Virus record (IMG/VR): IMGVR_UViG_3300024257_000005
Span: 1-64,000 of that record
From: a virus
Reading direction: 5' to 3' (one strand)
DNA length: 64,000 bases
The position numbers and the translations under genes are program-made. The notes under the pieces were generated by a model. It was not told where the DNA came from. It searched no databases and saw only the letters and a list, made by a program, of their open reading frames with translations. The first letter of the stretch is position 1. Each line of letters opens with the position of its first letter. Of this stretch, positions 16,311 through 41,498 are shown piece by piece.

Positions 16311-17105
16311 ATGGACGTAAAAGCCGTAAAAGAACGTCGTAAGCAATTCGCTGACAAATTCAAAAGAAATACAGACATATGGAAAGCCCCTAAGGGCACT
16401 CATGATGTAAGGGTCGTTCCTTATATTAACAACTCTGCTGACCCATTTGAAGAACTATGGTGGCACTGGAACATTGGCAATCGTGGTTTTCTTTGTTTAA
16501 AGAAAAACAAAGGAGAAGATTGTCCAATCTGTAACATGGCATCTGAAATGTGGAAATCAGAAGAAGATGAGGATAAAGAAATTGCAAAGAAAATGTTTGC
16601 AAATGTAAGATTCTATGCTCCTGTCTTACCAAGAGACGCTGAAGAAGAAGGTGTTAAATGGTGGGGCTTAAGTCAGACTCTCTATGATGCATTGACAAGT
16701 GAAGTATTGCTTGATCAGGTCGGAGATTATACTGACATAGAAGCAGGCCGTGACATTGCTGTCACATTTAAGACAAAAGAAGAAACTGGAAATGATTATG
16801 GTAAAGTATCAGTTGATGTTAAGTTTACCACATCACCACTTTCTGAAGATAAAGAGGTTGTTGCAAAATCACTCAAAGAGCAACCAAGTCTTATTGAAAT
16901 GTACCCCTACAATACTGCTGATGAACTAACTGAAGTATTAAGAAAATGGCTATTCCCAGAAGATGCTGAAGAAGAGGCTGCTTCAAAACCAGCTGCTAAA
17001 TCTGCACCAAAGGAAAAGGTCGAATCGCTTAAGACTGAAAGTGAAGATGATTCAGCCGGTACTGATGAAAGTTTAGAAAACAAATTCAAAAAACTTCTAG
17101 ACTAA
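16311..17105 (+). CDS. Single-stranded DNA-binding protein (gp32-like)
   Basis: VRVVP, HW, C..GEDCPIC, DYTDIEAGRDI, acidic C-terminal tail. Confidence 0.8.
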   Translation: MDVKAVKERRKQFADKFKRNTDIWKAPKGTHDVRVVPYINNSADPFEELWWHWNIGNRGFLCLKKNKGEDCPICNMASEMWKSEEDEDKEIAKKMFANVRFYAPVLPRDAEEEGVKWWGLSQTLYDALTSEVLLDQVGDYTDIEAGRDIAVTFKTKEETGNDYGKVSVDVKFTTSPLSEDKEVVAKSLKEQPSLIEMYPYNTADELTEVLRKWLFPEDAEEEAASKPAAKSAPKEKVESLKTESEDDSAGTDESLENKFKKLLD

Positions 17106-17117
17106 ACACATAATAAT

Positions 17118-17157
17118 ATAGAGACAGTTTTGAGCTAATCATTACTGTCTCTATTTT
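17118..17157 (+). terminator. Stem-loop/terminator after ssb
   Basis: atagagacagt...actgtctctat inverted repeat followed by Ts. Confidence 0.6.
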
Positions 17158-17176
17158 CATTTAGGGAGATTTCGCT

Positions 17177-18475
17177 ATGGACAAAGATGTACGTGATAAA
17201 TTAGTTGATGGAATTTTCTCAACTTTAAATACGAAATTCAAAGATACAAATCAAAAGTCATTCCGACTATCTGATCCTGATTCACCAGAAAATGCTAAAG
17301 AGTTTTGCTCTACTGGGTGTACTCCCCTAGACGTTGCAATATCAAATCGTGTGGGTGGAGGAATACCATACGGAAAGATCACAGAACTTAATGGACTAAA
17401 CTCATCTGGAAAATCATTGTTGCTTGCAACTATTTTGGTTGAAAATCAGAAGAAGGGCGGAATATCAATATTCTTAGATAATGAGTTTGCTGTAGATGGA
17501 ACTTTTTATGAAGCAATTGGCATGAACCTAGATCAACTAGTGTATTCACAAATTGAATATATTGAAGATATGCTTGATGCGATTACTGAAATTACACTCA
17601 AAATAAGAAAAGAAAATCCTACCATACCAATTGCAATTGGATTAGATTCTATTGCCGGAGCAAAAACGAGAAGTGATGCTGAAGGAATGGAAAAGGGTGG
17701 ATATAATACTCATAAAGCAATTATCTTATCTCAGAAGCTACCCATAATTGTAGCACTTTGTGCAAAACATAATATTGCCTTAATAGCTACACAGCAGCTG
17801 AGACAAAAAGTTGGTGGAATGGGATTTGGCGATCCATATGTATCTGCTTCAGGTGGTATGGCATTGGCCTTCTTTGCTTCTGTTAGAATCAGACTTGCAA
17901 CTATTGGAAAAATTAAAGCAGGCGATCTGGTTGTTGGAGTTAAATCTAGAGCCAGGGTAGAGAAAACAAGATTAGGGCCTCCATTTAGGGAAGCCGAGTT
18001 TGAAATCTTTTTTGACTCTGGTATTGATGATGCTAAATCCTGTCTTGAACAGCTAAAATTCTATAAAGTTGTTGAAGGAACCACATGGAAAATCTTCAAA
18101 GAAGATCTACATTTACCAGGGTTTGATCTTGAATGGAGAGATAAAGAAACACATTCAAAAGAGGCTGTTTTATTGATGTCGCCAAAAGGTAAAGCAATAA
18201 CTACAAAACCTGATGTAGGATTCTATCCCAAATTTCAACTTCCCACTTGGAGAAACATGATGAGAGATGAAAATTTCAGACGAGTTGTTGCAGAACAAAT
18301 CACAGACCTCAGCGTCAGAAAATATGCTGGCTATATGGAGAAAGACGACATGACAACATTGGTCACAACTGAAGATGAAAATGCTGAAGTCGTAGAGGAA
18401 GCAAAAGCTACTAAAAAAGAGAAGCTTAAAGCAATCCTAGCCAAACAGGGTTCTAACTCAGAAAATGGTGAATAA
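17177..18475 (+). CDS. recA: RecA/UvsX recombinase
   Basis: STGCTPLD, GGIPYGKITELNGLNSSGKS, LDSIAG, GGMALAFFASVRI, PPFREAEF. Confidence 0.9.
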   Translation: MDKDVRDKLVDGIFSTLNTKFKDTNQKSFRLSDPDSPENAKEFCSTGCTPLDVAISNRVGGGIPYGKITELNGLNSSGKSLLLATILVENQKKGGISIFLDNEFAVDGTFYEAIGMNLDQLVYSQIEYIEDMLDAITEITLKIRKENPTIPIAIGLDSIAGAKTRSDAEGMEKGGYNTHKAIILSQKLPIIVALCAKHNIALIATQQLRQKVGGMGFGDPYVSASGGMALAFFASVRIRLATIGKIKAGDLVVGVKSRARVEKTRLGPPFREAEFEIFFDSGIDDAKSCLEQLKFYKVVEGTTWKIFKEDLHLPGFDLEWRDKETHSKEAVLLMSPKGKAITTKPDVGFYPKFQLPTWRNMMRDENFRRVVAEQITDLSVRKYAGYMEKDDMTTLVTTEDENAEVVEEAKATKKEKLKAILAKQGSNSENGE

Positions 18476-19559
18476 TGTGAAACAATACACCACAGACAAG
18501 CATAAGAGATTATTAGGACTATTTGATAAGATAACAAAGCTTGATCCAGAAAGGGAGATCCATGATAAAATTCTTATTGTGGACTCTCTTAACCTGTTCA
18601 TTAGAAGCTTTTGTGTTGTATCTACATTGAACCCAGATGGAGTTCATGTAGGAGGAATACAGGGATCTCTATTGAGTCTTCAATATGCAATCAAGAAAAT
18701 CCGGCCAACCAAGATCATAATGGTTTGGGATGGACGAGGAGGATCTGATGCAAGAAGAAAAATGTATGATGGATATAAAGCAAATCGTGGCAAAGGCTTA
18801 AAAGGACTCAACCGAACTGTTGAATGGCTAAGTCCTGAAGAGGAAGAAAAAGCAGCAGTCAATCAAATCAGTCGATTTGGTCAGTACACTGAAAGTCTTC
18901 CTGTTGCATCAATATCAATTGATAGAGCTGAAGCCGATGATGTCATTGCATATATTTGCAATCAAATGTTTCCAGATGATAAAAAGGTTATTATGTCCAC
19001 CGATAAGGATTTCTTCCAACTCGTTAGTGACAAGACAACCGTTTACCGCCCCACTACTAAAGAGATAGTTGATCGACAATACTTGCAGGATAAGTTTTCA
19101 ATAGCCCCAAATAATTTTGTATTATATAGAGCTATTGATGGCGATCCTTCTGACAATCTCCCTGGAGTTAAGGGCATAGCAATAAAAACTGTCAATAAAT
19201 TATATCCAGAATTATCAGAAACAACTCAATATGATGTTCAATATATAATTGACAAAGCTAAAGAAAATCTTGACAATACAAAATTTGCCATGATATTTAA
19301 CAATGCTGATATAATAGAAAGAAACCATAAATTGATGCAATTGGCCGAAACAATTCTCCCAGGAGATAAAACTTCGATCGTTGTGGATGTTCTCAATAAT
19401 CAGAAAATGTCACTATTTGATAGACGAAAATTAAATCAGATGATGGCTGAAGATAAGATGTATATTCAGCAAAGAGGAATGAGCGGATGGTACAGTGTGT
19501 ATTCAGATGCTGATTCAAGAGCAAGGGTTTTTAATAGAAAATTAATTGAGAGGAAATAA
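18465..19559 (+). CDS. 5'-3' exonuclease/RNase H (flap endonuclease family)
   Basis: IVDSLN, WDG, YKANR, EADDVI, STDKDFFQL, GDPSDNLPGVKGI. Confidence 0.92.
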   Translation: MVNNVKQYTTDKHKRLLGLFDKITKLDPEREIHDKILIVDSLNLFIRSFCVVSTLNPDGVHVGGIQGSLLSLQYAIKKIRPTKIIMVWDGRGGSDARRKMYDGYKANRGKGLKGLNRTVEWLSPEEEEKAAVNQISRFGQYTESLPVASISIDRAEADDVIAYICNQMFPDDKKVIMSTDKDFFQLVSDKTTVYRPTTKEIVDRQYLQDKFSIAPNNFVLYRAIDGDPSDNLPGVKGIAIKTVNKLYPELSETTQYDVQYIIDKAKENLDNTKFAMIFNNADIIERNHKLMQLAETILPGDKTSIVVDVLNNQKMSLFDRRKLNQMMAEDKMYIQQRGMSGWYSVYSDADSRARVFNRKLIERK

Positions 19560-19560
19560 T

Positions 19561-20973
19561 GTGCTTTCAACTCAAGACGTATCAAACATTAAACTATCAG
19601 ACTATGGCAAGGAATTCCAAAGTAAGCTTTTATTTCTAGTTCTGACTGATAAGCACTTTTTCGAAAACGTATATGATATATTGAATGAAGATCTATTTGA
19701 GACATCAGCTACTCAATGGATAACAAAACACGTCAAGCTTTATTATAATGAATATAAGAAGCTACCAGATATTTCAGCATTCAATGCATTTAGAAAGAAA
19801 GATCCACTACTTAGTGACATCAATAAAATTGCAATCAAAGATACACTAATTGATGCAATCAGAAATGAACATGCCAACGATCTAGAATGGGTAGCAGACG
19901 AATCAACACTGTTTTTCAAAAACAAATTCTTTGAGGTAACTCTCTTTGAAGCAGTTGAACTATTACGAGAAAATAAATTTGATGAAATCAAAGCATTAGT
20001 AGATGCTGCTGCTTCTACAGGAATAGACAGAGAATTTGGTCATAGCTATGTAACTGGAATTGACGAACGATATGCAGAAGGTGCAAGAAATACAATAAAA
20101 ACAGGTTGGGATCCAATTGATTTATATCTCGATGGAGGTATTGGAATTGGTGAGCTTGGAGTTATTCTTGCTATGTCATCAGCCGGTAAAACCTGGGTGC
20201 TATGTCATCTTGCTGCTAATGCTTTGCTAGAAGGTAAGAAGGTAATATTCTACACACTTGAAGATTCAGAAACATTTATTTCAAAACGTATAGATTCTAT
20301 TATCCTGAAAAAAAGCACCAGTGAGATGAAATATCACATTGATGATCTGAAAGAAAAGCTGTCACATTTGGATGACAATCTGATTGTCAAAGAATATCCT
20401 CAATTGGTTACAACAACAAATGCCATGGTTGGTCACCTGAATAGTTTGAGATTAAGTGGCTGGTGTAATCCAGAAGGTGGAGAAGAAGATGATGATCTGT
20501 TGGTAATTGCTGACTATGGTGATATCTTTGCTCCACTAAAAAGCTTCAATTCAGACTGGCTAAATCAAAAACAAATATATAATGAATTAAAATCATTTGC
20601 ACAGGTAATGAGAATTAGATTGTGGACCGCTGCTCAGTCAAATATTGGCGCAGAAGGACAGCGTAATATTGAATCAACTAAAATGGGTGGAGCGTATGCA
20701 AAAGTTGCCCCATGTAATATTATTCTATCATTATCCAGAAGTACTGAGGATAAGGGAATGGATGTTGCAAGTCTATTTTTAGCTAAGAATAAATATGGAC
20801 AAGATTCAATTCATTTTCCAGTTCACAATGATAATAATAAAGGTGAGTTCAGAGTATACGATCAAGAAACAGAGCAAGGAAGAGAAATTGCTAAGAAGAT
20901 GCAAGTGGGTGATGTCGAGATGAAAAAACGTGTCGGTGAAAAGTTCAAACATCTTATGGAAAAAAAGGAATAG
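19561..20973 (+). CDS. Replicative DnaB-like helicase (gp41-like)
   Basis: TGWDPID..LDGG..GELGVI..SAGKT, ADYGD, WTAAQ, KNKYG. Confidence 0.88.
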   Translation: MLSTQDVSNIKLSDYGKEFQSKLLFLVLTDKHFFENVYDILNEDLFETSATQWITKHVKLYYNEYKKLPDISAFNAFRKKDPLLSDINKIAIKDTLIDAIRNEHANDLEWVADESTLFFKNKFFEVTLFEAVELLRENKFDEIKALVDAAASTGIDREFGHSYVTGIDERYAEGARNTIKTGWDPIDLYLDGGIGIGELGVILAMSSAGKTWVLCHLAANALLEGKKVIFYTLEDSETFISKRIDSIILKKSTSEMKYHIDDLKEKLSHLDDNLIVKEYPQLVTTTNAMVGHLNSLRLSGWCNPEGGEEDDDLLVIADYGDIFAPLKSFNSDWLNQKQIYNELKSFAQVMRIRLWTAAQSNIGAEGQRNIESTKMGGAYAKVAPCNIILSLSRSTEDKGMDVASLFLAKNKYGQDSIHFPVHNDNNKGEFRVYDQETEQGREIAKKMQVGDVEMKKRVGEKFKHLMEKKE

Positions 20974-20982
20974 GAGAATAAA

Positions 20983-21522
20983 ATGAAATTTAAGAAAATT
21001 TGGGAAGGAGATTGGGTTAGCATTGTAAGTCCGGTAGAACATGACTACGAGGCATTGCACGAAATGAATGGAGTTTTAATTGTTCCAATCTTATACGATA
21101 AAGATCAGCCTCTAATTGGAATACGAAAAGAGTTTTGTCCACCTTACTTTATTAAAGGACATAAGCCTGACTCAGGTTTATTTTATACTGCCATCTCTGG
21201 TGGAGTAGAAGATAAAGAAGATCCAGAAACAGCAGCTTTTAGAGAATTAAAAGAGGAAGCTGGAATTATTCCAATTTCATATTCTGTAACTGAATTATAT
21301 AAAGAAATCAATTTCGTAAAAAATACTGATGCTTTATCATCATGCTATCTTATGAAAATTTATACATATGACAAAGAAAAGCCTAAAGGCGATGGAACAG
21401 AAAATGAAGAAAAATCTAAGACAATCTGGGTAAGCCATAAACGATTGAAGACATTGCTAAAAGAAAAGAATATTGATCTACTATTCCACTTGGTTGGTAG
21501 CATCGCAAATGGAGTACTATAA
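20983..21522 (+). CDS. Nudix hydrolase
   Basis: Nudix box GGVEDKEDPETAAFRELKEEAG. Confidence 0.9.
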   Translation: MKFKKIWEGDWVSIVSPVEHDYEALHEMNGVLIVPILYDKDQPLIGIRKEFCPPYFIKGHKPDSGLFYTAISGGVEDKEDPETAAFRELKEEAGIIPISYSVTELYKEINFVKNTDALSSCYLMKIYTYDKEKPKGDGTENEEKSKTIWVSHKRLKTLLKEKNIDLLFHLVGSIANGVL

Positions 21523-24134: not shown

Positions 24135-24150
24135 TAAAAAGGAAATAGAA

Positions 24151-29728: not shown

Positions 29729-32700
29729 GTGAATAAAGAACAGATACATAATTTAATAAAAGGACAATATCCAGATGAAGAGATAGTTCTTCCACAAGGA
29801 TATGTCAAATCGTCGTTTATGGTTGTTAGTGAAAAGCCACTGAAGGATGAAGATTGGCTAAAGGTATTACTAGACAAAGTAAATATCGATACGTATACTA
29901 CATGGAAGACTTCGGTTTCAAAAAATGGAGCTGATGTAGATGATATAAGCGAATTGGTTGACCATGTAATTGAAAACGAAATAGTCAATGTACAACCACA
30001 GATCATTTTTACAATAGGTGAAAAAGTAAGTAAGGCTTTTAAAAAGCTTGACGGAACTGTTTTATTTGTAGAACTCACTGAAGATTTAGATGATGATGAA
30101 TTGGATGACCGGAAAAATGAAATTAGACAGATTGTATTTCGATCTACATTTATTAATTTCCATCACCACAACCAATTCTCATTTAGAGATGGTCTAGGAA
30201 CTGAAGATCAAATTGTTCAAAGATTAATGAAGCTTAAAATGCCAGGGTTCTGTCTTACGAATCATGGTAATATGAATGCTCATTTTAGATTATATAATGC
30301 AGCAAAAGCATATGGAATCAAACCGATCTATGGAAATGAGATGTACTACTGTCCAAATATTCAGGAGATCAACAAGCTCAAACTTTCAAAGGAAAAAGAA
30401 GATGTAGCAAAAAGAGTTGAGCTATCAAAAGAATCCTACCATTTAACTGTACTGGCCAAAAACGAAACCGGCTATTACAACCTTATTAAAATGAGCAATA
30501 TTAGTTGGATTGAAAACTTCTATAAATTCCCCAGAATCGATGACGAACTTCTTGAAAAACATAAAGAAGGACTGATAGTTCTATCAGGCTGCATTGGTGG
30601 ATTTATTCCAAAGAATCTGATTAATGACAATGAAGAGGCAGCCTATGAAAAAGCCAGACTATATAAAGACTGGTTTGGTGATGATTTCTATATTGAGTTG
30701 CACTCTACAGATTATGAACCTCAAAAAGAAGCCAATGAAAAGTTGGTAAAGCTGGCTAAAGATTTAGACATCAAAACTGTAATTGCATCAGACACTCACT
30801 ACATAAATAAAGGTGATGATGAAATTCAGCAGATCATGATGCTGAACAATGCAAAACAAAGTATTGAAGACTTAAATGATCCTACTACCAAAACGTGGTC
30901 ATTCTCTGTGAAAGATCTATACATTAAATCGATTGATGCTCTTATGAGTGATTTTGATGATAAGATGAAAAATGTAAACTATGATGAAAAAGATTTTGTC
31001 ACTTCTATTCTAAATGTAAACGAGCTGTTCACAAGGATAGAACATTTTGACATTGATAACTCATTAAAGCTTCCAAATATGGGTGAAAACTCTAGTGGTG
31101 AATTCAGAAAATTATTGAAAGAGGGAATAGAATACAGAAAACTAGAGGTAACAGAAAAACTTCTAGATAGACTCAAGATAGAAATGGACATCATTGAAAA
31201 ATTAGGTTACGTAGACTATTTCTTAATTATGGCAGATATCATTGTTTGGACAAAGGATAAATTTGGAGAATATAGTGTCGGCCCTGGTAGAGGATCAGCT
31301 GCTGGATCTTTGGTAAACTTTTTATTGAAAATTACTGATGTAAATCCACTAAATCACGAAATGCTCTTATTCGAAAGATTTCTATCTCCAGGTAGAGCTG
31401 ATGTTCCTGATATTGACACTGATTTTAGTCCAGATATTAGACCGTTGGTCAAAGAATATATTGTTGAACGATTCGGTAGAGAGTATGTATGTTCAATTGG
31501 AAACTATCAAACGCTTAAATTGAAATCAGCAATGCAAGATGTTTTTAGAACATTGAATATTCCATTTGGAGAGGTTGTCTTAGCAACAAAGGAAATTGGA
31601 AATCTATCTCCAGATGATGAAATTTTACCAGTTGCAGATATTAGAAAAGATTATAAGATGCTTGATGATCTCTTGAGGAGATACCCAGAGACTGAAAGGT
31701 TTATTGATAGCCTAAAGGGATTGGTAAAATCAACAGGACAACATGCTGCAGGAGTTATTGTATCTAGTAAGAAATTGACAGAAAATATTCCTCTTGTTAT
31801 TACTTCATCCAAAGAGATAGTATCTGCAAATACCGAAGGTGGTGATAACCACGAACTAACAGCTTTGGGATATATCAAATATGATATTCTCAGTCTTACT
31901 ACACTGAAATTGATCAATGATTGTAGTAAATATATTCTAGAAAGACATGGTGTGGATTTAGACTGGAATGAAAAAGAGTATGACGATGAAAGAATGTACG
32001 AGCTTCTTCATAAAGGTGATACATATGGAGTATTTCAATTTTCAAGTCCTCTGGCCACAAAATATCTAGAATCAATGAAGCCAGACGATCTTAATGATCT
32101 ATGTGCTGCTTCAGCCTTATTAAGACCAGGGCCATTAGATCAGAAAATGCACGAAGAATATAGCCTCATCAAAAGTGGTGAAAAAGACTATTCAATCAAC
32201 GAGGCATTAAAAGATATTCTAGGTCCTACATTCGGTATCATTGTTTATCAAGAACAGATATTGAGAATATGTCAAGAGCTTGGTGGCTTTACAAAAACTG
32301 AAGCTAATGTATTTCGTAAGGCTTTGGTGAAATATGAAAAATCTCCAGAACATGAAAAGAAAAGACGTGAAAGAGTTAAATCATTTTCAGTAAAATTGAT
32401 TGAAGGGCTTGAAAAATATATGTCCTCAAATGAAGCTACCAAGCTTTGGGAAATCATTGAATCATTTGCTAGATATGGTTTCAACTATGCTCATTCACTT
32501 TCATATTCAATTTTATCACATAGGCAATTATATCAGAAGTTCTTCTATCCTATGGAATACTATTGCTCATTTTTAAACAATGAAGAATTATCAGCGTATG
32601 CAAGAATCATTAGAAAAATGACCAAATTTGAATTGCGTAAATTCGACTATGACGATATGTCAATAACAGAAACATTCAATGCTAACATTGCCAAGCCTAA

Positions 32701-33397
32701 TTTTTCACTAATGAATTCTGATTTTATAATCGATGGAGATGAAATTGTTCATGGCATCACTAAAATAAAGTTTATTACTCAAAAGGCTTTTGATATTTTA
32801 AAGGATAACTACGACATAATAGATCTTGAAAATATTGATCTACTATTGGGAAAGAAATATTTGAATCACCTTGGCAAGAATGCCTATTTAATTAATAAGA
32901 GAATATTTGCAGCATTAGTATTTTCAGGAGCATTGGACTATCTTGATATGAGTAGAAATGATATAATCGATAGATATAATGACATTAGAAAAATGAAAGA
33001 TAAGGCTGCCGTTCCTCACATTGAAAATAAATCAGATAGGACCGCCAAGGAAAAAGACTATCTAGGATATTCGATGGATGGAAATAGAGAATTTAGAGCT
33101 TTTCGAGATGAATATTATGCTGCTCTTCCTGGGACTGCAAATCTTGATGAAATTTTTGATGAAGAGCATATGTCTCAAGCTAGTGACATATTCAGAATAT
33201 CCAAGGTTACTATGAAGAAAACAAAGAACGATAAGGACTACCGACTGGTCGAACTTGATACTATCGATAGAGCATTCTATCCAGTATTTGTCTGGAAGAA
33301 GGAAATTGATCTTAAAAAGGGATCGCTATACATTGGCGACCTAGCTAAAAGCAACGGATTTATAACACTAGAAAATGTGGAGTTAATTAATGAATAA
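29729..33397 (+). CDS. dnaE: DNA polymerase III alpha subunit with an N-terminal UDG-like extension
   Basis: PHP motifs HHHNQFS..DG, TNHGN, SDTHY; GPGRGSAAGSLV, FERFL, PDIDTDF, HAAGV, RPGP, YQEQ, YGFNYAH. Confidence 0.95.
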   Translation: MNKEQIHNLIKGQYPDEEIVLPQGYVKSSFMVVSEKPLKDEDWLKVLLDKVNIDTYTTWKTSVSKNGADVDDISELVDHVIENEIVNVQPQIIFTIGEKVSKAFKKLDGTVLFVELTEDLDDDELDDRKNEIRQIVFRSTFINFHHHNQFSFRDGLGTEDQIVQRLMKLKMPGFCLTNHGNMNAHFRLYNAAKAYGIKPIYGNEMYYCPNIQEINKLKLSKEKEDVAKRVELSKESYHLTVLAKNETGYYNLIKMSNISWIENFYKFPRIDDELLEKHKEGLIVLSGCIGGFIPKNLINDNEEAAYEKARLYKDWFGDDFYIELHSTDYEPQKEANEKLVKLAKDLDIKTVIASDTHYINKGDDEIQQIMMLNNAKQSIEDLNDPTTKTWSFSVKDLYIKSIDALMSDFDDKMKNVNYDEKDFVTSILNVNELFTRIEHFDIDNSLKLPNMGENSSGEFRKLLKEGIEYRKLEVTEKLLDRLKIEMDIIEKLGYVDYFLIMADIIVWTKDKFGEYSVGPGRGSAAGSLVNFLLKITDVNPLNHEMLLFERFLSPGRADVPDIDTDFSPDIRPLVKEYIVERFGREYVCSIGNYQTLKLKSAMQDVFRTLNIPFGEVVLATKEIGNLSPDDEILPVADIRKDYKMLDDLLRRYPETERFIDSLKGLVKSTGQHAAGVIVSSKKLTENIPLVITSSKEIVSANTEGGDNHELTALGYIKYDILSLTTLKLINDCSKYILERHGVDLDWNEKEYDDERMYELLHKGDTYGVFQFSSPLATKYLESMKPDDLNDLCAASALLRPGPLDQKMHEEYSLIKSGEKDYSINEALKDILGPTFGIIVYQEQILRICQELGGFTKTEANVFRKALVKYEKSPEHEKKRRERVKSFSVKLIEGLEKYMSSNEATKLWEIIESFARYGFNYAHSLSYSILSHRQLYQKFFYPMEYYCSFLNNEELSAYARIIRKMTKFELRKFDYDDMSITETFNANIAKPNFSLMNSDFIIDGDEIVHGITKIKFITQKAFDILKDNYDIIDLENIDLLLGKKYLNHLGKNAYLINKRIFAALVFSGALDYLDMSRNDIIDRYNDIRKMKDKAAVPHIENKSDRTAKEKDYLGYSMDGNREFRAFRDEYYAALPGTANLDEIFDEEHMSQASDIFRISKVTMKKTKNDKDYRLVELDTIDRAFYPVFVWKKEIDLKKGSLYIGDLAKSNGFITLENVELINE

Positions 33398-34412: not shown

Positions 34413-34421
34413 GGAGAAAGC

Positions 34422-35432
34422 ATGAAAAAACAAGATGTAATTAACATGAGAGAAGCAATGGGAACATTACCATCTCAATCACCTGAAAAATCATACGATT
34501 ATTCAGACGACATATCTTCTATTTATGTGAAGATGACAGACTGGCCAAGAAATCCATACGAAGTATTAGTTAGAGCTGTTACTGCCACTTGGGGAGACGA
34601 TGCAACTGGATCAACTCAGAAGTGGGAAAAGCTTACACCTGAAAACCGGTATAGAGTTGCTTTATCTACATTGACAGGAAATACACTGCCTCAGGCACAA
34701 GAAGGATTACAATTCCAATTTGAAGTGAATGGATTGTCAAGAGCAGATTTTGATCAGCATGCTAGAGCTCGTATTGGTGCACATTTCATGAGCATTGGTA
34801 CTAGAGATAATAACAAATTGGATGCTAGGTTCTTGTTATATGATGACATTACTGAGCAAATGAAAGTTGATCCCGCCTACAAAGAGAAGGTTGAAAGCTG
34901 GATTAAATTGTCAAAAGATCTCTATGAAGAAACCATAAATCAATCGGAATCGTCATGGCAAACAGGTCGCTCATTCTTACCTCAATCAATTAATCATTCA
35001 TATGTGTTCGGAATGAATTATATTGCACTGAAAGGACAGATGGGAAGACGACTTATGGCTTGCGAACAAGAGGGAATTGTTGCACTCCATTGGAAAATCC
35101 GAAAAGAACTGGAAGATCACTTTCCACTATTAGCATCATTCTTAAGACCGGTATGTGATAAAGCACGTAAGTGTGTTTACATGGAAGGCCCAGAAGGAAT
35201 GACAAAATACTTTTCAAACCTATTTGACGGTTGTGGAAGATGGGAAATCAAGAACAAAGAAAATGCCGAATATAAAGAGTTCAACAGAAGTTGCTCTGAT
35301 TATAATCGTCTCCGAGAATTAGATATCCCAGTTTTAGATCCCCATGAATTTGTAAACTATGGACCAGATGATTTTGACAAATTAGATGAGAAGGATAAGC
35401 AGTGGTTTTATGACGAAGAAGATAGAGGGTAG
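34422..35432 (+). CDS. Divergent flavin-dependent thymidylate synthase (ThyX-like)
   Basis: E.LQFQFEVNGLSR..DQHARARIG, GRSFLPQS, RRLMACEQ; canonical RHRx7S motif altered. Confidence 0.7.
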   Translation: MKKQDVINMREAMGTLPSQSPEKSYDYSDDISSIYVKMTDWPRNPYEVLVRAVTATWGDDATGSTQKWEKLTPENRYRVALSTLTGNTLPQAQEGLQFQFEVNGLSRADFDQHARARIGAHFMSIGTRDNNKLDARFLLYDDITEQMKVDPAYKEKVESWIKLSKDLYEETINQSESSWQTGRSFLPQSINHSYVFGMNYIALKGQMGRRLMACEQEGIVALHWKIRKELEDHFPLLASFLRPVCDKARKCVYMEGPEGMTKYFSNLFDGCGRWEIKNKENAEYKEFNRSCSDYNRLRELDIPVLDPHEFVNYGPDDFDKLDEKDKQWFYDEEDRG

Positions 35433-35901
35433 AATATCATTAGCTGAGATGTATATCGATATAGCTCAGACAATATCCAAAAGAAGCACCTGTAAGCGAA
35501 AGCAAGTAGGTGCTGTGGTGGTTAAAGATTCATCAATTAGTGCATACGGATATAATGGAACACCTCATGGCTGGGATAATTGCTGTGAGGATTCTGAAAA
35601 TGAAACAAAGTCAGAAGTTATTCATGCTGAAATAAATGCAATAACAAAGATGGCTAAATCAAATGCGAGTATAGATGGATCGACTGTTTATATAACGTTG
35701 TCACCATGTTTTGATTGTGCTAAGGCAATAATACAATCAGGAATTACTACAGTTATCTATTTAGAAGAATATAGAGATGTAGACCCTCTACAGTTTCTAG
35801 CTGAAGCTGGAGTTGAAGTTCGACAAGTGGACGCAAAAGGCCGGATTATCAAAGTCTGGACAAAAGGCAAAGAACCTATCAAAATTAGTCAAGGAAAATA
35901 A
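35410..35901 (+). CDS. dCMP deaminase
   Basis: RSTCKRKQVGAV, GYNGTP, HAEINA, SPCFDCAK. Confidence 0.93.
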   Translation: MTKKIEGRISLAEMYIDIAQTISKRSTCKRKQVGAVVVKDSSISAYGYNGTPHGWDNCCEDSENETKSEVIHAEINAITKMAKSNASIDGSTVYITLSPCFDCAKAIIQSGITTVIYLEEYRDVDPLQFLAEAGVEVRQVDAKGRIIKVWTKGKEPIKISQGK

Positions 35902-37556
35902 TGAAATATAAGAATCAAATTCTCGATGCATTTAAAAAATTCGGCTTTGAGCCTAGAGGAAATCAGCTAGAACTAGTTAATGAAATTTTAACATCATTCA
36001 TTGATAACGAAAAAGAAAATGTAGTTCTATCTGCTCCAACAGGAACTGGTAAGTCAATTATTGCTGCGATTGCAGCCGAGGTTTTGTCTGAGCTTGATAA
36101 GTCATATGACGAAACTAAAAAGTCATTTATTCTAATGCATACTAACACGCTTACAAAACAGTATCTCAACACATTCAAGAAATATGATAATGATTTTATT
36201 TCAGTAATGGGTGCAGGAAACTATCCATGTTCACTATTGGATGAGACTGCTGCAAGCTGTATGTTCAAAGAGGCTGATGATGAAAAGCGAAAGCAACATT
36301 GTTTTGATTGTGAATACTTGGACAACCGGGGAAAGATGAATAAAATTCCCCACCTGATTACCAACTATTCTTACTTCTTTATCTCAGCACTATATTCTCA
36401 TTCACTAGATGATAGATTAATTACTGTGTTTGATGAAGCTCACATCATAAATGATATTTTCAGCAGTCATATGCAAATTCATGTGACAACACATATGGTT
36501 GAATCCATGATTAGAGATATTGAAAAATATCCTATTGACAATGCTCAAACTATTCTAGATTCGTTACGACAGGTGATAGATATGATCGAGGAAGGTATAA
36601 TCAACAAAGGCAACTACAAGAGCTTCCTCAAGGTCCTACAAAGCATTTATGGCAAAATTTTAGAGGAGTTTGAATACCAATCAGCCGATTGTTTTCAACG
36701 CGATGATTGGGCTAGATTCAAAGTTATGAAGGCAATTGCACGCAAATATCAGAACTTACACCAAAAAATCGATGATTTCTTCGGTTATAATTACGAACAT
36801 ATTTTGGATGTTCAAAATGTAAGCATAAGTGTTTCGCCAATATTCTTCTCTGACATGTTCAAACAAGTACAGAAATCAAAATACAATTTATTTATGTCAG
36901 CTACAGTCAATAAGGAATTCATTGTTAAGACTCTGAATTTGGCTCCTAAGGATACGACCTATATTAAATCACCACCCGTGTTTGATCCTGAGACAAAATC
37001 TGTAATTATGATCAATCATACAAACTACAACTATAGCTCATTACAGAATAAATCAATCCTGGCAGAAATGTCAGAGCTGGTATTTGATATTATCAAGGAT
37101 CATCCTGAAAAGGGTATCATACTGACTCCCTCATTTAAGATTACAAAAGCGATTGCAGACTACTTGAAATCAACAAATCAAAGCACCAGAATTATTGAGC
37201 ATGTTCAGGGAATTCATCTAAATAGATTCCTAGACAGGCACAAGTCCTCAAAGGCAAATAGCATTTTGATATCTCCTTCACTATTTGAGGGAATCGATCT
37301 ACCTAAGAAGGAATCTGAGTTCCAGATCTTTGTCAAAGCACCATTCCCATCTCTAGGAGACAAGAGGATCAAATACATCTTCGATCATCACTCATCAATA
37401 TATGAGCTCATGACAATATTCAAGATAGTCCAGGGATTTGGCAGGTCGACCAGAAGTGCTGATGATTTTTCTCTGACATATTCGTTGGATGCCAACATCG
37501 GTAGACTATTTAATCACAAGAAGAATATCTGGAAAGAAGAATTTAATATCATTTAA
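35901..37556 (+). CDS. DinG/Rad3-family SF2 helicase
   Basis: PRGNQ, APTGTGKS, DEAH, MSAT, EGIDLP, KAPFP, QGFGRSTRS. Confidence 0.88.
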   Translation: MKYKNQILDAFKKFGFEPRGNQLELVNEILTSFIDNEKENVVLSAPTGTGKSIIAAIAAEVLSELDKSYDETKKSFILMHTNTLTKQYLNTFKKYDNDFISVMGAGNYPCSLLDETAASCMFKEADDEKRKQHCFDCEYLDNRGKMNKIPHLITNYSYFFISALYSHSLDDRLITVFDEAHIINDIFSSHMQIHVTTHMVESMIRDIEKYPIDNAQTILDSLRQVIDMIEEGIINKGNYKSFLKVLQSIYGKILEEFEYQSADCFQRDDWARFKVMKAIARKYQNLHQKIDDFFGYNYEHILDVQNVSISVSPIFFSDMFKQVQKSKYNLFMSATVNKEFIVKTLNLAPKDTTYIKSPPVFDPETKSVIMINHTNYNYSSLQNKSILAEMSELVFDIIKDHPEKGIILTPSFKITKAIADYLKSTNQSTRIIEHVQGIHLNRFLDRHKSSKANSILISPSLFEGIDLPKKESEFQIFVKAPFPSLGDKRIKYIFDHHSSIYELMTIFKIVQGFGRSTRSADDFSLTYSLDANIGRLFNHKKNIWKEEFNII

Positions 37557-37559
37557 CTG

Positions 37560-37588
37560 TTTCATCCAATACAATTTCATAGTATATT
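37560..37588 (+). promoter_or_regulatory. Sigma70-like promoter (TTTCAT-N17-TATATT)
   Basis: Intergenic, same motif as 38812. Confidence 0.55.
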
Positions 37589-37607
37589 GTAGCAACAAAG
37601 GAGACTT

Positions 37608-38018
37608 ATGACATATTCAAAATTTTATAGAACAGTTGCCATAGAAGTGCAAGGTGTTCTTGTAGACCTCAGAGGAAATGTAAATCCTTATACAGAGGAA
37701 GCATTAAATCTGCTGGTAGAGAATGACTTTCATGTCATTTTATGGACCGATAAGGGCGGCATTGATATTCGAGAGCATTTGAATATCAACAAACATAAAA
37801 ATATCAACATAGCCCATAAACCAGATACACCGGCAAAAGACGTATATCATGTCATCGATTATAGGTACGATTATGGATCTCAATATAAGCTGTGGTCCGT
37901 CATTCAGTTTCTATCAATTGAAAAATCAGATGGTTATAAAATTGTTGAATGTATAAAGGATTATATTACCATTGTAAAGGGAATAGAGGTTCGTCTTGGA
38001 AAAGCTAAAAAAAGCTAA
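37608..38018 (+). CDS. Degenerate HAD-fold protein
   Basis: VAIEVQGVL (DxDG-like), VILWT. Confidence 0.4.
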   Translation: MTYSKFYRTVAIEVQGVLVDLRGNVNPYTEEALNLLVENDFHVILWTDKGGIDIREHLNINKHKNINIAHKPDTPAKDVYHVIDYRYDYGSQYKLWSVIQFLSIEKSDGYKIVECIKDYITIVKGIEVRLGKAKKS

Positions 38019-38427
38019 AGTAGGAATTGTTGGTTCTCGTGAGTGGCAATCATATCGCGACATCAAGGATTTTGTATTCTTCCTCAAAAAAGAATATGGA
38101 GATGGTCTAACAATTGTTTCAGGTGGACAGCCGCTTGGAGCAGATGGCATGGCAAAGAAAGCTGCACTGGAATTAGAAGTTAACTATGTGGAATTTCCAC
38201 CTCAGCATTTTGAGTATAATCAATATTGCCAGAACAACGGTGTCCCAAAATATATGTACAACAAACCTTATCATGTGAGATATTTCTTCATGAGGAATAG
38301 TCAAATTGCAGAATATTCTGATTTTGTGGTTGGTTTTATTCCCAAAGGTTTCCCATCAAAGGGCACTCGTGATACACTGAGAAAAGCTGAAAAGCTTGGC
38401 AAGAAAATAATCATTCAGGAGAAATAA
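37996..38427 (+). CDS. SLOG-family (DprA/YspA-like) protein
   Basis: GIVGSR, IVSGG..GAD, RNSQI, SKGT. Confidence 0.75.
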   Translation: MEKLKKAKVGIVGSREWQSYRDIKDFVFFLKKEYGDGLTIVSGGQPLGADGMAKKAALELEVNYVEFPPQHFEYNQYCQNNGVPKYMYNKPYHVRYFFMRNSQIAEYSDFVVGFIPKGFPSKGTRDTLRKAEKLGKKIIIQEK

Positions 38428-38807
38428 TGGCAAATATTGTAAATGAGTTTGAAAGAGAAATAGCTCGTTCTGAAGAAAATAAAACAGATATAGCTAAACG
38501 AATGCAAAGAATAGCAAATATTTCTAACCGAATTCAGATGGAACAGTTTAGACAGCAAGAGCTTGAGCTACAAGCAGAGCAACTAGCAACAAAATTCACT
38601 GGTAAGACTCCAGATCGACATAAAGAAGCCGTCAAAATTCCCACACGCATTATAGATCGATTTGCATGGTACCCAGTTACGATTGGAAATAAGATGAAAT
38701 TCCTAGTCAAATGTAAAATACTTCAGGAATTTGGTCGATGGGAATCAGATGGTGTTCTTGATCCACCACCACATTGGCGTAATAAAGAATTCATTGAAAC
38801 GAGTTAA
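38427..38807 (+). CDS. Hypothetical protein
   Basis: Coupled TAATG start. Confidence 0.55.
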   Translation: MANIVNEFEREIARSEENKTDIAKRMQRIANISNRIQMEQFRQQELELQAEQLATKFTGKTPDRHKEAVKIPTRIIDRFAWYPVTIGNKMKFLVKCKILQEFGRWESDGVLDPPPHWRNKEFIETS

Positions 38808-38811
38808 ACGG

Positions 38812-38840
38812 TTTCATCTAACGCCATTTTGGGTTATATT
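38812..38840 (+). promoter_or_regulatory. Sigma70-like promoter (TTTCAT-N17-TATATT)
   Basis: Intergenic, upstream of ligA. Confidence 0.55.
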
Positions 38841-38864
38841 GCAGTAACAACCAAAGGAGTACAC

Positions 38865-40799
38865 ATGAATTCAGTTTTCGAAAAATTAATCAAGGCATCA
38901 GAAGCTTATTACAATGGTCATCCTATCATGGATGATTCTGAGTTTGATGCTCTTGTAGACATGGTAACAGCCAGTCATCCAAACCATCCCATTCTAAAAA
39001 CAATTGGTGCACCAACCAGGGACGATTCACCTTGGACAAAAAGGTCGCATCAAATTGCCATGGGATCGCTTTCAAAGATCGTTGATGACAACGATTTGGC
39101 AAAATTCATGGACAAACATTATACTGAAAATTTCCGGAAGGAATATGTCTTATCAGAAAAACTTGATGGAATCTCAATTAACTGTGAATATTCAAACGGA
39201 GTTCTTATCCGGGCGATCACTAGAGGTAGTGGAGTTGAGGGTGAAGATATTAAGAGAAACGTTTTGAACATGAATGGTTGCAACCGGGGAATAAGCATCG
39301 ATCGAGATACTTCAGTAAGAGGTGAGATTATTATGCTTGAGGGTGACTTTAAAATTCTCAATCAGATTCTTGTAGCTCTAGGTGAAGAGCCATACAAAAA
39401 TATGAGAAACTGTGTATCTGGAATTGCTAGAAGATTTGATGGAAAATACTCTGAATATCTCACAATCAGATATTACGATACCACAATTGGAGATTTAGAT
39501 AAGGCTGAGAAATTCTGGTGGTTAAAGAATCACGGATTTGATACAGCTGAATTCTATATTGTCAAAACAATGAACGAAATCCAAGCAATTTACCAATCAT
39601 ATGTTGAATCAAAAAGAGAAGGAATTGATTATGAAATTGATGGATTGGTTCTGGAAATATCAGACCGCGATATTAGAAATCGTATGGGATATAAGGATCA
39701 AAAACCTAAGTTTGCCGTGGCTTACAAATTCCCCAGCTTGGCAGCAACAACTACTCTTTTAGATATTGAGTGGAATGTCGGAACTGGTGGTCATATCACT
39801 CCAGTGGCAATTCTCGAACCTGTTCAAATTGGTGGTATTACAATTCGCAGGTCAACATTGCATAATCAGGCAAATGTCAAGGCATTAAATCTTGGATTAA
39901 ATGACACAGTATTGGTTAGCCGAAGGAATGATGTTATTCCTTATGTTGAGAAAGTAATCTACTCGGATAACAATCTTCATTTTAACATTCCTGAATGCTG
40001 CCCTGAATGTAGCGAACCTGCTATTATTGATGGTGCATATCTTGTTTGTGAAAATCCATTATGCAAGGGAAACTTATTAGGATCCTTGATGAAATGGATC
40101 AAAAAGTCTGGAATGGATTCTCTAGGTATGGGTGAGAAGGTTATTGAAAGGGCTTTTGATGCAGAACTAATCACATTCCCAGCCGAACTATACACAATGA
40201 GCACCAATAAGTTCTTACAACTTGAAGGAGTTCAGAACAAATCGGCAACTAAGATGATGAGCATTATTCAATCTCATAGATCATTATCTCTGGCTGATTT
40301 TATTGGTGGATTGAACCTTGGATCATTTGGATCCTCACTGGCTCAAAGATTAGTAGATGCTGGATATGATACTCTTGAAAAAATTCAAGCTCTTACAATT
40401 CCCCAAATGGTTCATGTTGAAGGAATGGGATATAAGAGATCAGGAAATTTCATTGAGAGATTATTTGCAAAAACAAACCAGATCAATAGGCTTCTTGAGC
40501 ATGTCACCATTGAAGAAGAAAAACCTGCTTTAGAAGCAACCGGTGATATATTTAATAACAATAGCTTTTGCTTCACAGGTGCAATCCAAAAGGAAACACC
40601 TGAAGGAAAGAGATTTAATAGGAAGATGATGGAAGCATTGGTTTTTGAAAATGGTGGAAGCACATCATCAGTAAAGAAGGGCCTCACCTATTTGGTACAG
40701 GCTGATCCAGATTCACAATCATCAAAAACAAAGAAGGCAATCTCCTTAGGTGTAGAAATATTAGCCGAATCAGATTTCTTCAAAATGCTGGGAGAATAA
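38865..40799 (+). CDS. ligA: NAD-dependent DNA ligase
   Basis: YYNG.P.MDDSEFD, EKLDG, TRG.G..GED, DGLV, AYKF, Zn finger, HhH, BRCT. Confidence 0.95.
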   Translation: MNSVFEKLIKASEAYYNGHPIMDDSEFDALVDMVTASHPNHPILKTIGAPTRDDSPWTKRSHQIAMGSLSKIVDDNDLAKFMDKHYTENFRKEYVLSEKLDGISINCEYSNGVLIRAITRGSGVEGEDIKRNVLNMNGCNRGISIDRDTSVRGEIIMLEGDFKILNQILVALGEEPYKNMRNCVSGIARRFDGKYSEYLTIRYYDTTIGDLDKAEKFWWLKNHGFDTAEFYIVKTMNEIQAIYQSYVESKREGIDYEIDGLVLEISDRDIRNRMGYKDQKPKFAVAYKFPSLAATTTLLDIEWNVGTGGHITPVAILEPVQIGGITIRRSTLHNQANVKALNLGLNDTVLVSRRNDVIPYVEKVIYSDNNLHFNIPECCPECSEPAIIDGAYLVCENPLCKGNLLGSLMKWIKKSGMDSLGMGEKVIERAFDAELITFPAELYTMSTNKFLQLEGVQNKSATKMMSIIQSHRSLSLADFIGGLNLGSFGSSLAQRLVDAGYDTLEKIQALTIPQMVHVEGMGYKRSGNFIERLFAKTNQINRLLEHVTIEEEKPALEATGDIFNNNSFCFTGAIQKETPEGKRFNRKMMEALVFENGGSTSSVKKGLTYLVQADPDSQSSKTKKAISLGVEILAESDFFKMLGE

Positions 40800-40802
40800 A
40801 TA

Positions 40803-41021
40803 ATGAATGTATTTTATGGCATTTGTAGCATAATAATTATATTGTTACTTGCCGCAATGACTGGATTAGCAGCCATGGGAGCAATTGCAGGAACTGTATT
40901 ATTTTATGGTAGCATATTGGCTTTGGCACTAGGATTTTATATTTGGACATCCATTGTAGAATCATCTCGTTTATTATGGTCAATGCTAAGTGATAAGTTT
41001 CTTACAATCTGGCCAAGATAA
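40803..41021 (+). CDS. Small membrane protein
   Basis: Two hydrophobic segments. Confidence 0.5.
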   Translation: MNVFYGICSIIIILLLAAMTGLAAMGAIAGTVLFYGSILALALGFYIWTSIVESSRLLWSMLSDKFLTIWPR

Positions 41022-41200
41022 TGTTTTTAAAATGGATTAGACAGTGGTGGTGCAAAGACCATAAGTGGGTGATTGTAGAAATTAACCAAGTTGACCATGC
41101 ACTGAATGTATCAAAGAAAAACAAATGTAGCAAATGTGGCAAAATCAGATTTAAGACATTGAACAAATTTTTTAAATGGCAATATAGAGTAAGGGATTAG
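41021..41200 (+). CDS. Small Zn-ribbon-like protein (59 aa)
   Basis: WWCKDHKW...CSKCGK; translated by hand, below the ORF-track size cutoff. Confidence 0.55.
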   Translation: MFLKWIRQWWCKDHKWVIVEINQVDHALNVSKKNKCSKCGKIRFKTLNKFFKWQYRVRD

Positions 41201-41201
41201 A

Positions 41202-41498
41202 ATGGCTAGTATAAAACGACATGAAGTTTTGGCAGCAGTAAAAGCCAAATATCCAGATGAAGATCTTATGATCAAGGTTGTATCAAAGCATCTCAGGATA
41301 GATATTATCAATAAAGCCACTAATGAGATTTATTTTTCATGGTCGATGGCTTTAGAGGAACACGTAGAAGAGCAAAAATGGATTCATAAAAGATCTCCAA
41401 CTCAAGTCGTGATTGACTCATTTGAAAAGCAATATGATAAAACAATCTTGGATGACATAAATCTCTTATTGAGCGTACCAACAGTCACCGACATTTAA
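41202..41498 (+). CDS. Hypothetical protein
   Basis: ORF in a tightly packed gene run. Confidence 0.5.
   Translation: MASIKRHEVLAAVKAKYPDEDLMIKVVSKHLRIDIINKATNEIYFSWSMALEEHVEEQKWIHKRSPTQVVIDSFEKQYDKTILDDINLLLSVPTVTDI

What the first reader, a model, noticed from the sequence alone, without database searches (positions are those of the whole stretch)
16311..41498. A 25-kb replication block is code-neutral: no TGA as sense and none as stop
Seen: every + strand gene from ssb to 41498 is intact under code 11, uses TGG for all Trp (8 in SSB alone), and ends in TAA or TAG. The same holds for 55942-64000. In an AT-rich genome with a fixed code 4, TGA should often replace TGG. Inference: these genes must be translated both before and after the code change, so the host probably uses the standard code and the phage imposes the switch.
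Basis: partly seen in the sequence, partly recalled or inferred. Interest (0 to 1): 0.75.

Follow-up and report, generated by a model that had tools for sequence, protein, structure and literature searches.

The report
Dual-coded replication block in TGA-recoded phage
In this phage fragment the stop codon TGA means tryptophan in the virion genes, while the 25-kb DNA-replication block avoids TGA entirely and so reads the same under either code; this layout is already published for gut phages, but here the host is probably a Marinimicrobia bacterium.

Summary
All 25 plus-strand ORFs in 16311-41498 have identical coordinates under codes 11 and 4. They hold 99 TGG, no in-frame TGA and no TGA stop (20 TAA, 5 TAG). 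The virion module of the same contig has 36 internal TGA against 66 TGG (Fisher p = 8e-13). There TGA lies inside conserved sheath and baseplate domains and aligns with Trp in a relative.

The phage GroEL nests inside a Marinimicrobia clade. The five nearest genomes all carry prfB with its UGA frameshift site and a tRNA-Trp(CCA).

The idea is not new. Pfennig et al. (Mgcod) describe "dual-coded" early blocks, and Borges et al. describe TGA-recoded phages with standard-code replication genes and depleted TGA stops. This scan has also noted the pattern in at least 93 other genomes.

What imposes the switch is unknown. The contig is a fragment (CheckV 50%, head module missing). It has 27 tRNAs but no tRNA(UCA), no RF1 and no TrpRS. 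Its tRNA-Trp(CCA) has an unusual C9, which is a lead only.

Verdict: a real feature and a new member of a known kind, of modest interest.

The parts
16311..41498 (+). Dual-coded (code-neutral) replication and nucleotide-metabolism block of 25 ORFs. It encodes gp32-like SSB, RecA/UvsX, 5'-3' exonuclease, DnaB-like helicase, NUDIX, ribonucleotide reductase, ClpP, an RNase H-fold exonuclease, dUTPase/NT5C, an epimerase, DnaE, a TMP-kinase-like protein, ThyX, dCMP deaminase, a DinG-like helicase, a DprA/SLOG protein and NAD-dependent LigA.
   Evidence: ORFs are identical under tables 11 and 4; 99 TGG, 0 TGA, stops TAA/TAG only; Pfam domains
16248..16255 (+). Promoter-like motif TATATTTA, preceded by TTTTG 12 nt upstream, in the gap before the SSB gene. 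It marks the 5' edge of the block.
   Evidence: 14 of 18 copies of the 8-mer lie in the 6% of the contig that is intergenic. The same motif precedes the sheath, tube and hub genes, so it does not separate early from late genes.
41525..41558 (+). 13-bp hairpin with a T-rich tail, directly after the last gene of the block (terminator-like 3' edge)
250..16219 (+). Window part of the late virion module (neck, gp15-like protein, sheath, tube, baseplate hub, tail proteins). It has 21 in-frame TGA read as Trp. The module continues at 96833-105677 of the contig.
4417..6666 (+). Tail sheath gene. The TGA at 6103 (codon 563) lies inside the Pfam sheath domain (residues 472-636) and aligns with W in Microcystis phage Mel-JY01.
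7322..8128 (+). Baseplate hub gene. The TGA at 7757 (codon 146) lies inside the T4_baseplate domain (residues 33-254).
41762..55941 (+). Intermediate region with sparse sense TGA (42059, 43392, 46388, 54144, 55600). It encodes glycosyltransferases, a SWIM protein, an Acb1-like protein, a response-regulator receiver and small ORFs.
55942..64000 (+). Second TGA-free stretch: IMPDH/GuaC-like protein, RNase H-like protein, Rnl2, and the start of GroEL (which runs to 64582 on the contig)

Best explanation
The window is the first 64 kb of a 105.7-kb fragment of an uncultured contractile-tailed phage. In this phage UGA has been taken over as a Trp codon, mainly in virion genes. The 25-kb block is the phage's replication and nucleotide-metabolism module, and it is written without any TGA. 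It therefore gives the same proteins whether the cell treats UGA as stop (host RF2 active, early infection) or as Trp (later). Virion genes carry up to 6 TGA each and can be completed only once UGA is read efficiently as Trp. The genetic code thus acts as a translational gate on late functions. Shown here: TGA is sense and fits Trp in late genes; the block is strictly dual-coded; the probable host lineage has RF2 and a CCA tRNA-Trp. Inferred: the timing (early versus late, from gene function only); that the phage rather than the host supplies UGA decoding; and that TGA stops were purged because read-through tails would be harmful after the switch. The device that reads UGA was not identified. 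It may lie in the missing part of the genome, or it may be the phage's unusual tRNA-Trp(CCA).
For: Recoding is real. TGA lies inside single Pfam/PHROG domain matches of the sheath and the hub. It aligns with W at 4 of 9 aligned sites in Mel-JY01 and never with G. Trp density in late genes rises from 8.4 to 12.9 per 1000 codons when TGA is counted, matching 12.0 in the block. Partition: 0/99 against 36/102, p = 8e-13. Purged stops: orthologous replication genes of the closest standard-code relatives end in TGA (RNR and h318 in L005; DnaE and dUTPase in L006), and 30% of stops are TGA across 86 related loci. Host: GroEL nests in Marinimicrobia. Those genomes have prfB with the UGA frameshift site, tRNA-Trp(CCA), and a tmRNA tag GESNYALAA against the phage's GTNYAIAA. 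Literature: the same layout and model appear in Borges et al. (10.1101/2021.08.26.457843) and in Pfennig et al., as 'dual-coded' early blocks (10.1101/2022.06.29.495998).
Against: No tRNA(UCA), RF1-family domain or class Ib aaRS was found on the contig, so nothing shown here imposes the switch. The contig is incomplete (CheckV 50%; no terminase, portal or capsid match). The host link rests on one acquired gene. No CRISPR-type match was found in 16 candidate genomes for window 1-40000. The only promoter-like motif found precedes both the SSB gene and the sheath gene, so there is no sequence evidence for different timing. There are no expression data.
Confidence: 0.72

Rival explanations
1. Historical depletion only. 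TGA stops were lost genome-wide before recoding, by AT-biased drift or a low-TGA ancestor. Sense TGA then accumulated only where it was tolerated. On this view the missing TGA stops say nothing about the block being translated after the switch. The block is simply standard-code and happens to be compatible with both codes.
For: Borges et al. report a standard-code relative of Agate phages with only 4 of 146 TGA stops and propose depletion as the precursor of recoding. In this contig TGA stops are missing everywhere, not only in the block. In a small sample of candidate-host loci, only 4 of 44 ORFs end in TGA.
Against: Relatives of similar GC (31-39%) use TGA for 14-45% of stops, including in orthologous genes, so low GC alone does not remove them. 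However, these relatives share only 41-47% protein identity, so a later depletion step cannot be excluded.
Confidence: 0.2
2. There is no temporal switch. UGA is read as Trp at a constant, partial level throughout infection, for example by a near-cognate tRNA-Trp(CCA) from phage or host. Codon choice then reflects how much read-through loss each gene tolerates.
For: No anticodon-UCA suppressor is on the contig. The phage tRNA-Trp(CCA) has C9 and a 4-nt variable loop, whereas the host clade has G9, and A9C is a known UGA-reading change (PMC13092985). Within the virion module, the presumed high-copy proteins have few TGA (tube 0 TGA to 6 TGG, sheath 1 to 5), while tail and baseplate proteins of presumed low copy have many (6 to 2 and 6 to 8). 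T is under-represented after TGA compared with after TGG (3/38 against 17/67, p = 0.025), as expected if RF2 still competes.
Against: Genes with 6 TGA would yield almost no full-length protein unless decoding is efficient. Replication genes show a strict zero rather than a graded low use. Many standard-code bacteria carry tRNA-Trp with C9 or A24, so C9 alone proves nothing.
Confidence: 0.1
3. The host itself uses code 4 (or reads UGA ambiguously). The phage simply follows it, and the module difference has another cause, such as recent import of the replication module from a standard-code phage.
For: No phage suppressor was found. TGA is never clearly used as a stop anywhere in the contig.
Against: True code-4 genomes use TGA for 80-90% of Trp codons, against 11% overall and 0% in the block here. 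A recently imported standard-code module should still carry about 30% TGA stops, and this one has none. The GroEL-donor clade has RF2 with its UGA frameshift site and tRNA-Trp(CCA). From general knowledge, the known code-4 bacteria (Mollicutes, tiny endosymbionts) are not known hosts of T4-type contractile-tailed phages over 100 kb.
Confidence: 0.05

Closest known systems
'Dual-coded' early blocks of multi-code phages (Pfennig, Lomsadze & Borodovsky, Mgcod; bioRxiv 10.1101/2022.06.29.495998)
   Same: A block enriched in early DNA-replication genes gives nearly identical proteins under the standard and the reassigned code, while the late block needs the reassigned code. The authors draw the same conclusion: these genes can be translated by a standard-code host, and a later code switch does not disrupt them.
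   Different: Their cases are mostly human-gut crAss-like phages with TAG reassignment. They state that the code 11 + code 4 set was too small to analyse. In their phages the code switch follows a strand switch; here all genes are on one strand.
TGA-recoded 'Agate' and 'Jade' gut phages (Borges et al., bioRxiv 10.1101/2021.08.26.457843)
   Same: TGA means Trp in structural genes while the replication machinery stays in standard code. TGA stops are depleted. A homing-type endonuclease gene is rich in TGA (here 69217-69894, with 3 TGA). Only 35% of code-4 phage genomes have a detectable TGA suppressor tRNA.
   Different: Those phages come from animal guts and are predicted to infect Firmicutes or Bacteroidetes. 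This phage carries a Marinimicrobia-type GroEL, and its virion module is closest to a cyanophage and a Flavobacterium phage. Membership in the Agate clade could not be tested because no terminase or Agate sequences were available. No lysis cassette was identified here.
crAss-like phages with TAG or TGA reassignment (Yutin et al. 2021, PMC7886860; Ivanova et al. 2014, as cited)
   Same: Late genes are recoded, early genes are not, and the host uses the standard code.
   Different: They are podovirus-like Crassvirales with their own suppressor tRNAs. This phage is a contractile-tailed phage with a T4-like sheath and baseplate and no detectable suppressor.
Microcystis phage Mel-JY01 (PP395634), the closest cultured relative by virion genes
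   Same: The neck-sheath-tube-hub-tail gene order is collinear, with 24-44% protein identity.
   Different: It uses the standard code, with 5 of 36 stops being TGA. It has W where this phage has TGA.
Hirsh (G24A) and A9C variants of E. coli tRNA-Trp(CCA)
   Same: The anticodon remains CCA, and a change at position 9 in the tRNA hinge is known to allow UGA reading. The phage tRNA-Trp has C9, and the candidate host has G9.
   Different: No functional test exists. Position 24 is an ordinary C paired with G11. C9/A24 variants are common in standard-code bacteria.

Membership tests
Stop-codon-recoded (code 4) phage with a dual-coded early block | In-frame TGA inside conserved domains of essential late genes | tested here: met
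   A single HMM match spans the TGA in the sheath and in the baseplate hub; coding potential is positive on both sides of 36 late TGAs
Stop-codon-recoded (code 4) phage with a dual-coded early block | TGA corresponds to Trp in homologues | tested here: met
   W at 4 of 9 aligned sites, never G; Trp density is normalised when TGA is counted
Stop-codon-recoded (code 4) phage with a dual-coded early block | Recoded codons are concentrated in structural/lysis genes and absent from replication genes | tested here: met
   36/102 against 0/99, p = 8e-13. Lysis genes were not identified on this fragment.
Stop-codon-recoded (code 4) phage with a dual-coded early block | The early block translates identically under both codes (no sense TGA, no TGA stop) | tested here: met
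   Identical ORF coordinates; stops 20 TAA and 5 TAG
Stop-codon-recoded (code 4) phage with a dual-coded early block | The host uses the standard code (RF2 present) | tested here: inconclusive
   The host is inferred from GroEL phylogeny only. In that clade, prfB, the frameshift site and tRNA-Trp(CCA) are present. There was no spacer match.
Stop-codon-recoded (code 4) phage with a dual-coded early block | Phage-encoded switch machinery (tRNA-UCA, RF1, TrpRS). This is usual but not universal. | tested here: not met
   None was found by ARAGORN at default and relaxed settings, Rfam at gathering and E-value thresholds, an anticodon-arm pattern scan, or searches for PF00472 and PF00579. The contig is only about 50% complete.
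Agate clade (Borges et al.) | Large-terminase phylogeny places the phage in the clade | not testable with these tools
   There is no terminase on the contig and no Agate sequences are held
Phage of a fixed code-4 host | TGA dominates Trp codons (80-90%) in all gene classes | tested here: not met
   11% overall and 0% in the block; benchmark
Code 25 phage (TGA = Gly) | TGA aligns with Gly, and about 90% of genes contain TGA | tested here: not met
   No G at aligned sites; about one gene in five holds a TGA

The most novel reading that the evidence does not exclude
The phage reassigns UGA without an anticodon-UCA suppressor. Its own tRNA-Trp keeps the CCA anticodon but has a remodelled hinge (C9, U12-A23, 4-nt variable loop), and it reads UGA by near-cognate pairing in competition with host RF2. 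The strictly TGA-free replication block and the low TGA content of the presumed high-copy virion proteins would then be adaptations to a graded, imperfect code change. This would be a natural, phage-borne counterpart of the laboratory A9C/Hirsh suppressors.
Probability: 0.13. Interest if true: 0.72.

Novelty: new member of a known kind. Interest (0 to 1): 0.36.

Why it matters
The finding adds a clean, statistically strong example of a dual-coded early module in a TGA-to-Trp phage. It comes from outside the gut lineages where the pattern was defined: a T4-like contractile-tailed phage whose acquired GroEL points to Marinimicrobia, a phylum with little known phage biology. For annotators the lesson is practical. 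Code 11 splits the virion genes of this contig, code 4 is right for them, and either code is right for the replication block. The open question worth pursuing is what decodes UGA here, because 105.7 kb with 27 tRNAs holds no UCA suppressor.

Tried and rejected
- The T4 late promoter TATAAATA occurs 11 times on each strand with no link to gene starts, so it was rejected. The enriched motif TATATTTA precedes both SSB and virion genes, so it gives no early/late split.
- Sigma-70 and terminator scans at the block edges gave no more than chance, apart from one hairpin at 41525-41558.
- I looked for a hidden suppressor tRNA in several ways: ARAGORN with introns and lowered thresholds, Rfam at E up to 0.5 over the whole contig, and a scan for 5-bp stems around a YUUCARN loop. 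The intron-mode tRNA(tca) call at 82738-83885 spans three protein genes and is spurious. The two stem-loop hits lie inside coding genes and have no tRNA-like flanks. No group I intron was found.
- The contig is not circular. An ORF does run in frame across the end-to-start junction. But there is no terminal repeat, the head module is missing and CheckV gives 50%, so I treat the contig as a fragment.
- I searched for closer relatives. The DnaE single-protein scan found none. Profile scans with DnaE and LigA found only relatives at 47% identity or less, all standard-code.
The longer contigs (126-128 kb) that carry the identical DnaE and GroEL could therefore not be fetched.
- LigA as a host marker gave only unnamed phage-like relatives.
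I recovered them through the genome search.
- CRISPR-type matches were sought for window 1-40000 in 16 candidate genomes and none was found. The rest of the contig was not searched.
- Two attempts to fetch the host tRNA-Trp by pattern and by BLAST failed. The nusG neighbourhood then gave it.
Full report
WHAT THE DNA IS. The window is the first 64 kb of a single 105,677-bp IMG/VR virus record with 36% GC and almost all genes on the + strand. It encodes a contractile-tail virion: a gp15-like sheath stabiliser, sheath, baseplate hub, and gp25/gp6-like wedge proteins. The closest cultured relative by these genes is Microcystis phage Mel-JY01. Its sheath is 39-42% identical and the gene order is collinear from neck to tail.

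The record is a fragment. IMG/VR classes it as linear and CheckV estimates 50% completeness. None of the Mel-JY01 terminase, portal, protease or capsid genes has a match. Proteins identical to its DnaE and GroEL occur on contigs of up to 126-128 kb elsewhere.

THE OBSERVATION. Tables 11 and 4 give identical ORFs for the whole stretch 16311-41498. It holds 25 ORFs, 8284 codons, 99 TGG and no in-frame TGA, and its stops are 20 TAA and 5 TAG. Out-of-frame TGA is frequent there (42 per 1000 codons), so base composition is not the cause.

The block is the replication and nucleotide-metabolism module. It encodes gp32-like SSB, RecA/UvsX, a FEN-type exonuclease, DnaB-like helicase, NUDIX, ribonucleotide reductase, ClpP, an RNase H-fold exonuclease, dUTPase/NT5C, an epimerase, DnaE, a TMP-kinase-like protein, ThyX, dCMP deaminase, a DinG-like helicase, a DprA/SLOG protein and LigA. 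Its 5' edge follows a promoter-like motif at 16248. Its 3' edge is followed by a 13-bp hairpin at 41525-41558. The two TGAs at 57920 and 58019 lie in a stretch that scores as non-coding, before the ATG at 58049.

IS TGA REALLY A SENSE CODON ELSEWHERE? Yes. In the sheath gene (4417-6666) the TGA at codon 563 lies inside one Pfam domain match (residues 472-636). In the hub gene (7322-8128) the TGA at codon 146 lies inside the T4_baseplate match (residues 33-254). Coding potential is positive on both sides of 36 TGAs in the virion module, which runs from 96.8 kb to the contig end and from 1 to 16.2 kb.

Against Mel-JY01, TGA aligns with W at 4 of 9 aligned sites, with Y, N, V, S and V at the others, and never with G. 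Chance would give about 1% W per site. Counting TGA as Trp raises the Trp density of the late genes from 8.4 to 12.9 per 1000 codons, which matches 12.0 in the block. So the reassignment is code 4, not code 25.

STATISTICS. Block against virion module: 0 TGA / 99 TGG against 36 / 66, Fisher p = 7.7e-13. Block against the rest of the contig (13 / 211): p = 0.012.

For stops I compared phage loci fetched around homologous dnaE or ligA genes. In 86 such loci with at least 15 ORFs, 30% of stops are TGA when pooled (median 0.30), and only one locus has none. The nearest relatives (L005 and L006, DnaE 41-42%; L165-L167, LigA 47%) use the standard code. They end orthologues of this block's RNR, h318, dUTPase and DnaE genes in TGA. 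The absence of TGA stops is therefore a derived feature of this lineage and is not explained by low GC alone.

HOST. The phage GroEL (62948-64582) has its best matches, at 74-76% identity, in MAGs named Candidatus Marinimicrobia or Neomarinimicrobiota. In a sample of 301 genomes of that phylum, a subset with 3-4.7 Mb genomes reaches 71-75%, while the rest are at 62-68%. A maximum-likelihood tree places the phage sequence inside this clade, with support 100/97 and 98/91, well apart from Bacteroidota, Ignavibacteriota, Chlorobiota, Calditrichota and KSB1.

All five nearest genomes have prfB at about 510 bits, against a cut-off of 370, and also have prfA. In four of them the match starts at the classical AGGGGG-N3-CTTTGAC programmed-frameshift site. 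That site works only if UGA is a stop codon read by RF2. The tRNA-Trp was recovered in four of the five and has anticodon CCA. Their tmRNA tag is GESNYALAA and the phage tmRNA tag is GTNYAIAA. The phage tmRNA scores 120.8 bits in Rfam and is 53-54% identical to theirs, the highest of 14 FCB-group tmRNAs compared, though only by a small margin.

No CRISPR-like match to window 1-40000 was found in 16 of these genomes. LigA has only unnamed, phage-like relatives. The host assignment is therefore probable, not proven.

WHAT IMPOSES THE CODE CHANGE? This was not found. The contig has 27 tRNAs (65.1-74.9 kb) and a tmRNA, but no tRNA with anticodon UCA. That result held with ARAGORN at default and relaxed settings and with introns allowed, with Rfam at gathering and E-value thresholds, and with a direct scan for UCA anticodon arms. 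It has no RF-1 domain protein and no class Ib aminoacyl-tRNA synthetase. Because the contig is incomplete, this does not prove absence. Borges et al. also found suppressor tRNAs in only 35% of code-4 phage genomes.

One lead comes from another reader of this genome (e1-6038394) and was partly checked here. The phage tRNA-Trp(CCA) at 69880-69952 has C at position 9, a GGUU/AACC D stem and a 4-nt variable loop. The candidate host's tRNA-Trp has G9 and a 5-nt loop. Only 2 of the 27 phage tRNAs have C9. A9C in E. coli tRNA-Trp is a known UGA-reading change, but C9/A24 variants are also common in standard-code bacteria (PMC13092985). Two weak observations fit incomplete suppression. T is rare after sense TGA (3/38 against 17/67 after TGG, p = 0.025). 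The presumed high-copy tube and sheath proteins have few TGA, while tail and baseplate proteins have many.

COMPARISON WITH WHAT IS KNOWN. Borges et al. (bioRxiv 10.1101/2021.08.26.457843) describe TGA-recoded gut phages (Agate, Jade) with recoded structural and lysis genes and replication machinery in standard code. They also report a close standard-code relative with only 4 of 146 TGA stops, and they propose a model in which the phage switches a standard-code host to the alternative code during infection. [quoted passage not shown] They add that true code-4 genomes use TGA for 80-90% of Trp codons; here the share is 11% overall. This scan has also noted the same partition on other DNA, with 111 notes in at least 93 genomes (for example e1-5687487).

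The finding is therefore a correct rediscovery. What is new is the setting: a T4-like contractile-tailed phage tied to Marinimicrobia rather than a gut phage. I found no paper on recoded phages of that phylum in the held library. The mechanism also remains unresolved.

VERDICT. This is a new member of a known kind. The claim that the block "must be translated before and after the switch" remains an inference. The alternative, that TGA stops were lost before recoding, cannot be excluded without closer relatives.

Noticed in passing
contig 69880-69952 (5.9 kb beyond the window end; L002:5880-5952): The phage tRNA-Trp keeps anticodon CCA but has C9, a GGUU/AACC D stem and a 4-nt variable loop. 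The tRNA-Trp of the candidate host clade has G9 and a 5-nt loop. Only 2 of the 27 phage tRNAs have C9. It is a possible near-cognate UGA reader.
   Followed up: partly
contig 69217-69894 (L002:5217-5894): An endonuclease-like ORF (PHROG Holliday-junction resolvase/endonuclease families) carries 3 in-frame TGA, sits inside the tRNA array, and its 3' end overlaps the start of tRNA-Trp. This parallels the TGA-rich homing endonuclease reported for Agate phages. No group I intron was detected.
   Followed up: partly
window 16205; contig 87802 and 90346: At three gene ends a TGA is followed by TAA within 1-3 codons (gene 15809-16219, the RlaP-like gene, and gene 89515-90354). These may be the only TGA stops in the contig, each backed up by a nearby TAA. 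Alternatively they are Trp codons near the C terminus.
   Followed up: no
window 4366, 6670, 7293, 16248, 26047, 44106, 54626 and about 8 more on the contig: The motif TTTTG-N11-12-TATATTTA is strongly enriched in intergenic DNA (14 of 18 copies of the 8-mer lie in 6% of the sequence) and sits upstream of both virion and replication genes. It resembles the Bacteroidota-type -7 box TAnnTTTG (from memory, not tested).
   Followed up: partly
window 62948-64000, continuing to contig 64582: The phage-encoded GroEL is 74-76% identical to Marinimicrobia GroEL and nests inside that clade. This indicates a fairly recent host-to-phage transfer and is the best host marker found.
   Followed up: yes
contig 91118-91475 (L003:7118-7475): A full-length phage tmRNA (Rfam 120.8 bits) has tag GTNYAIAA, close to the GESNYALAA tag of the candidate host clade.
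   Followed up: partly
window 61740-62768 and contig 82.4-89.2 kb: A large RNA-repair set is present: Rnl2, Rnl1, PNKP (kinase plus HAD phosphatase), an RlaP nucleotidyltransferase, a HAD-SAK domain protein and two metallophosphoesterases, next to a 27-tRNA array.
   Followed up: partly
window 46518-47036 and 53267-53815: An Acb1-like / 2H phosphoesterase (anti-CBASS family) and a stand-alone response-regulator receiver domain protein are encoded here.
   Followed up: no
L241 (IMGVR_UViG_3300045988_123311) and sister loci L222-L244: A group of 150-170 kb IMG/VR phages from one sample series (GC 31-32%, LigA 27-30% identical) shows very few TGA stops (0-3 of about 20 ORFs) around ligA. These may be further TGA-depleted or recoded lineages.
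   Followed up: no
window 29729-33397: The closest DnaE relatives (P0002-P0005) carry a recorded N-terminal UDG-family domain (PF03167). This phage's DnaE aligns over that region but has no recorded PF03167 hit.
   Followed up: no
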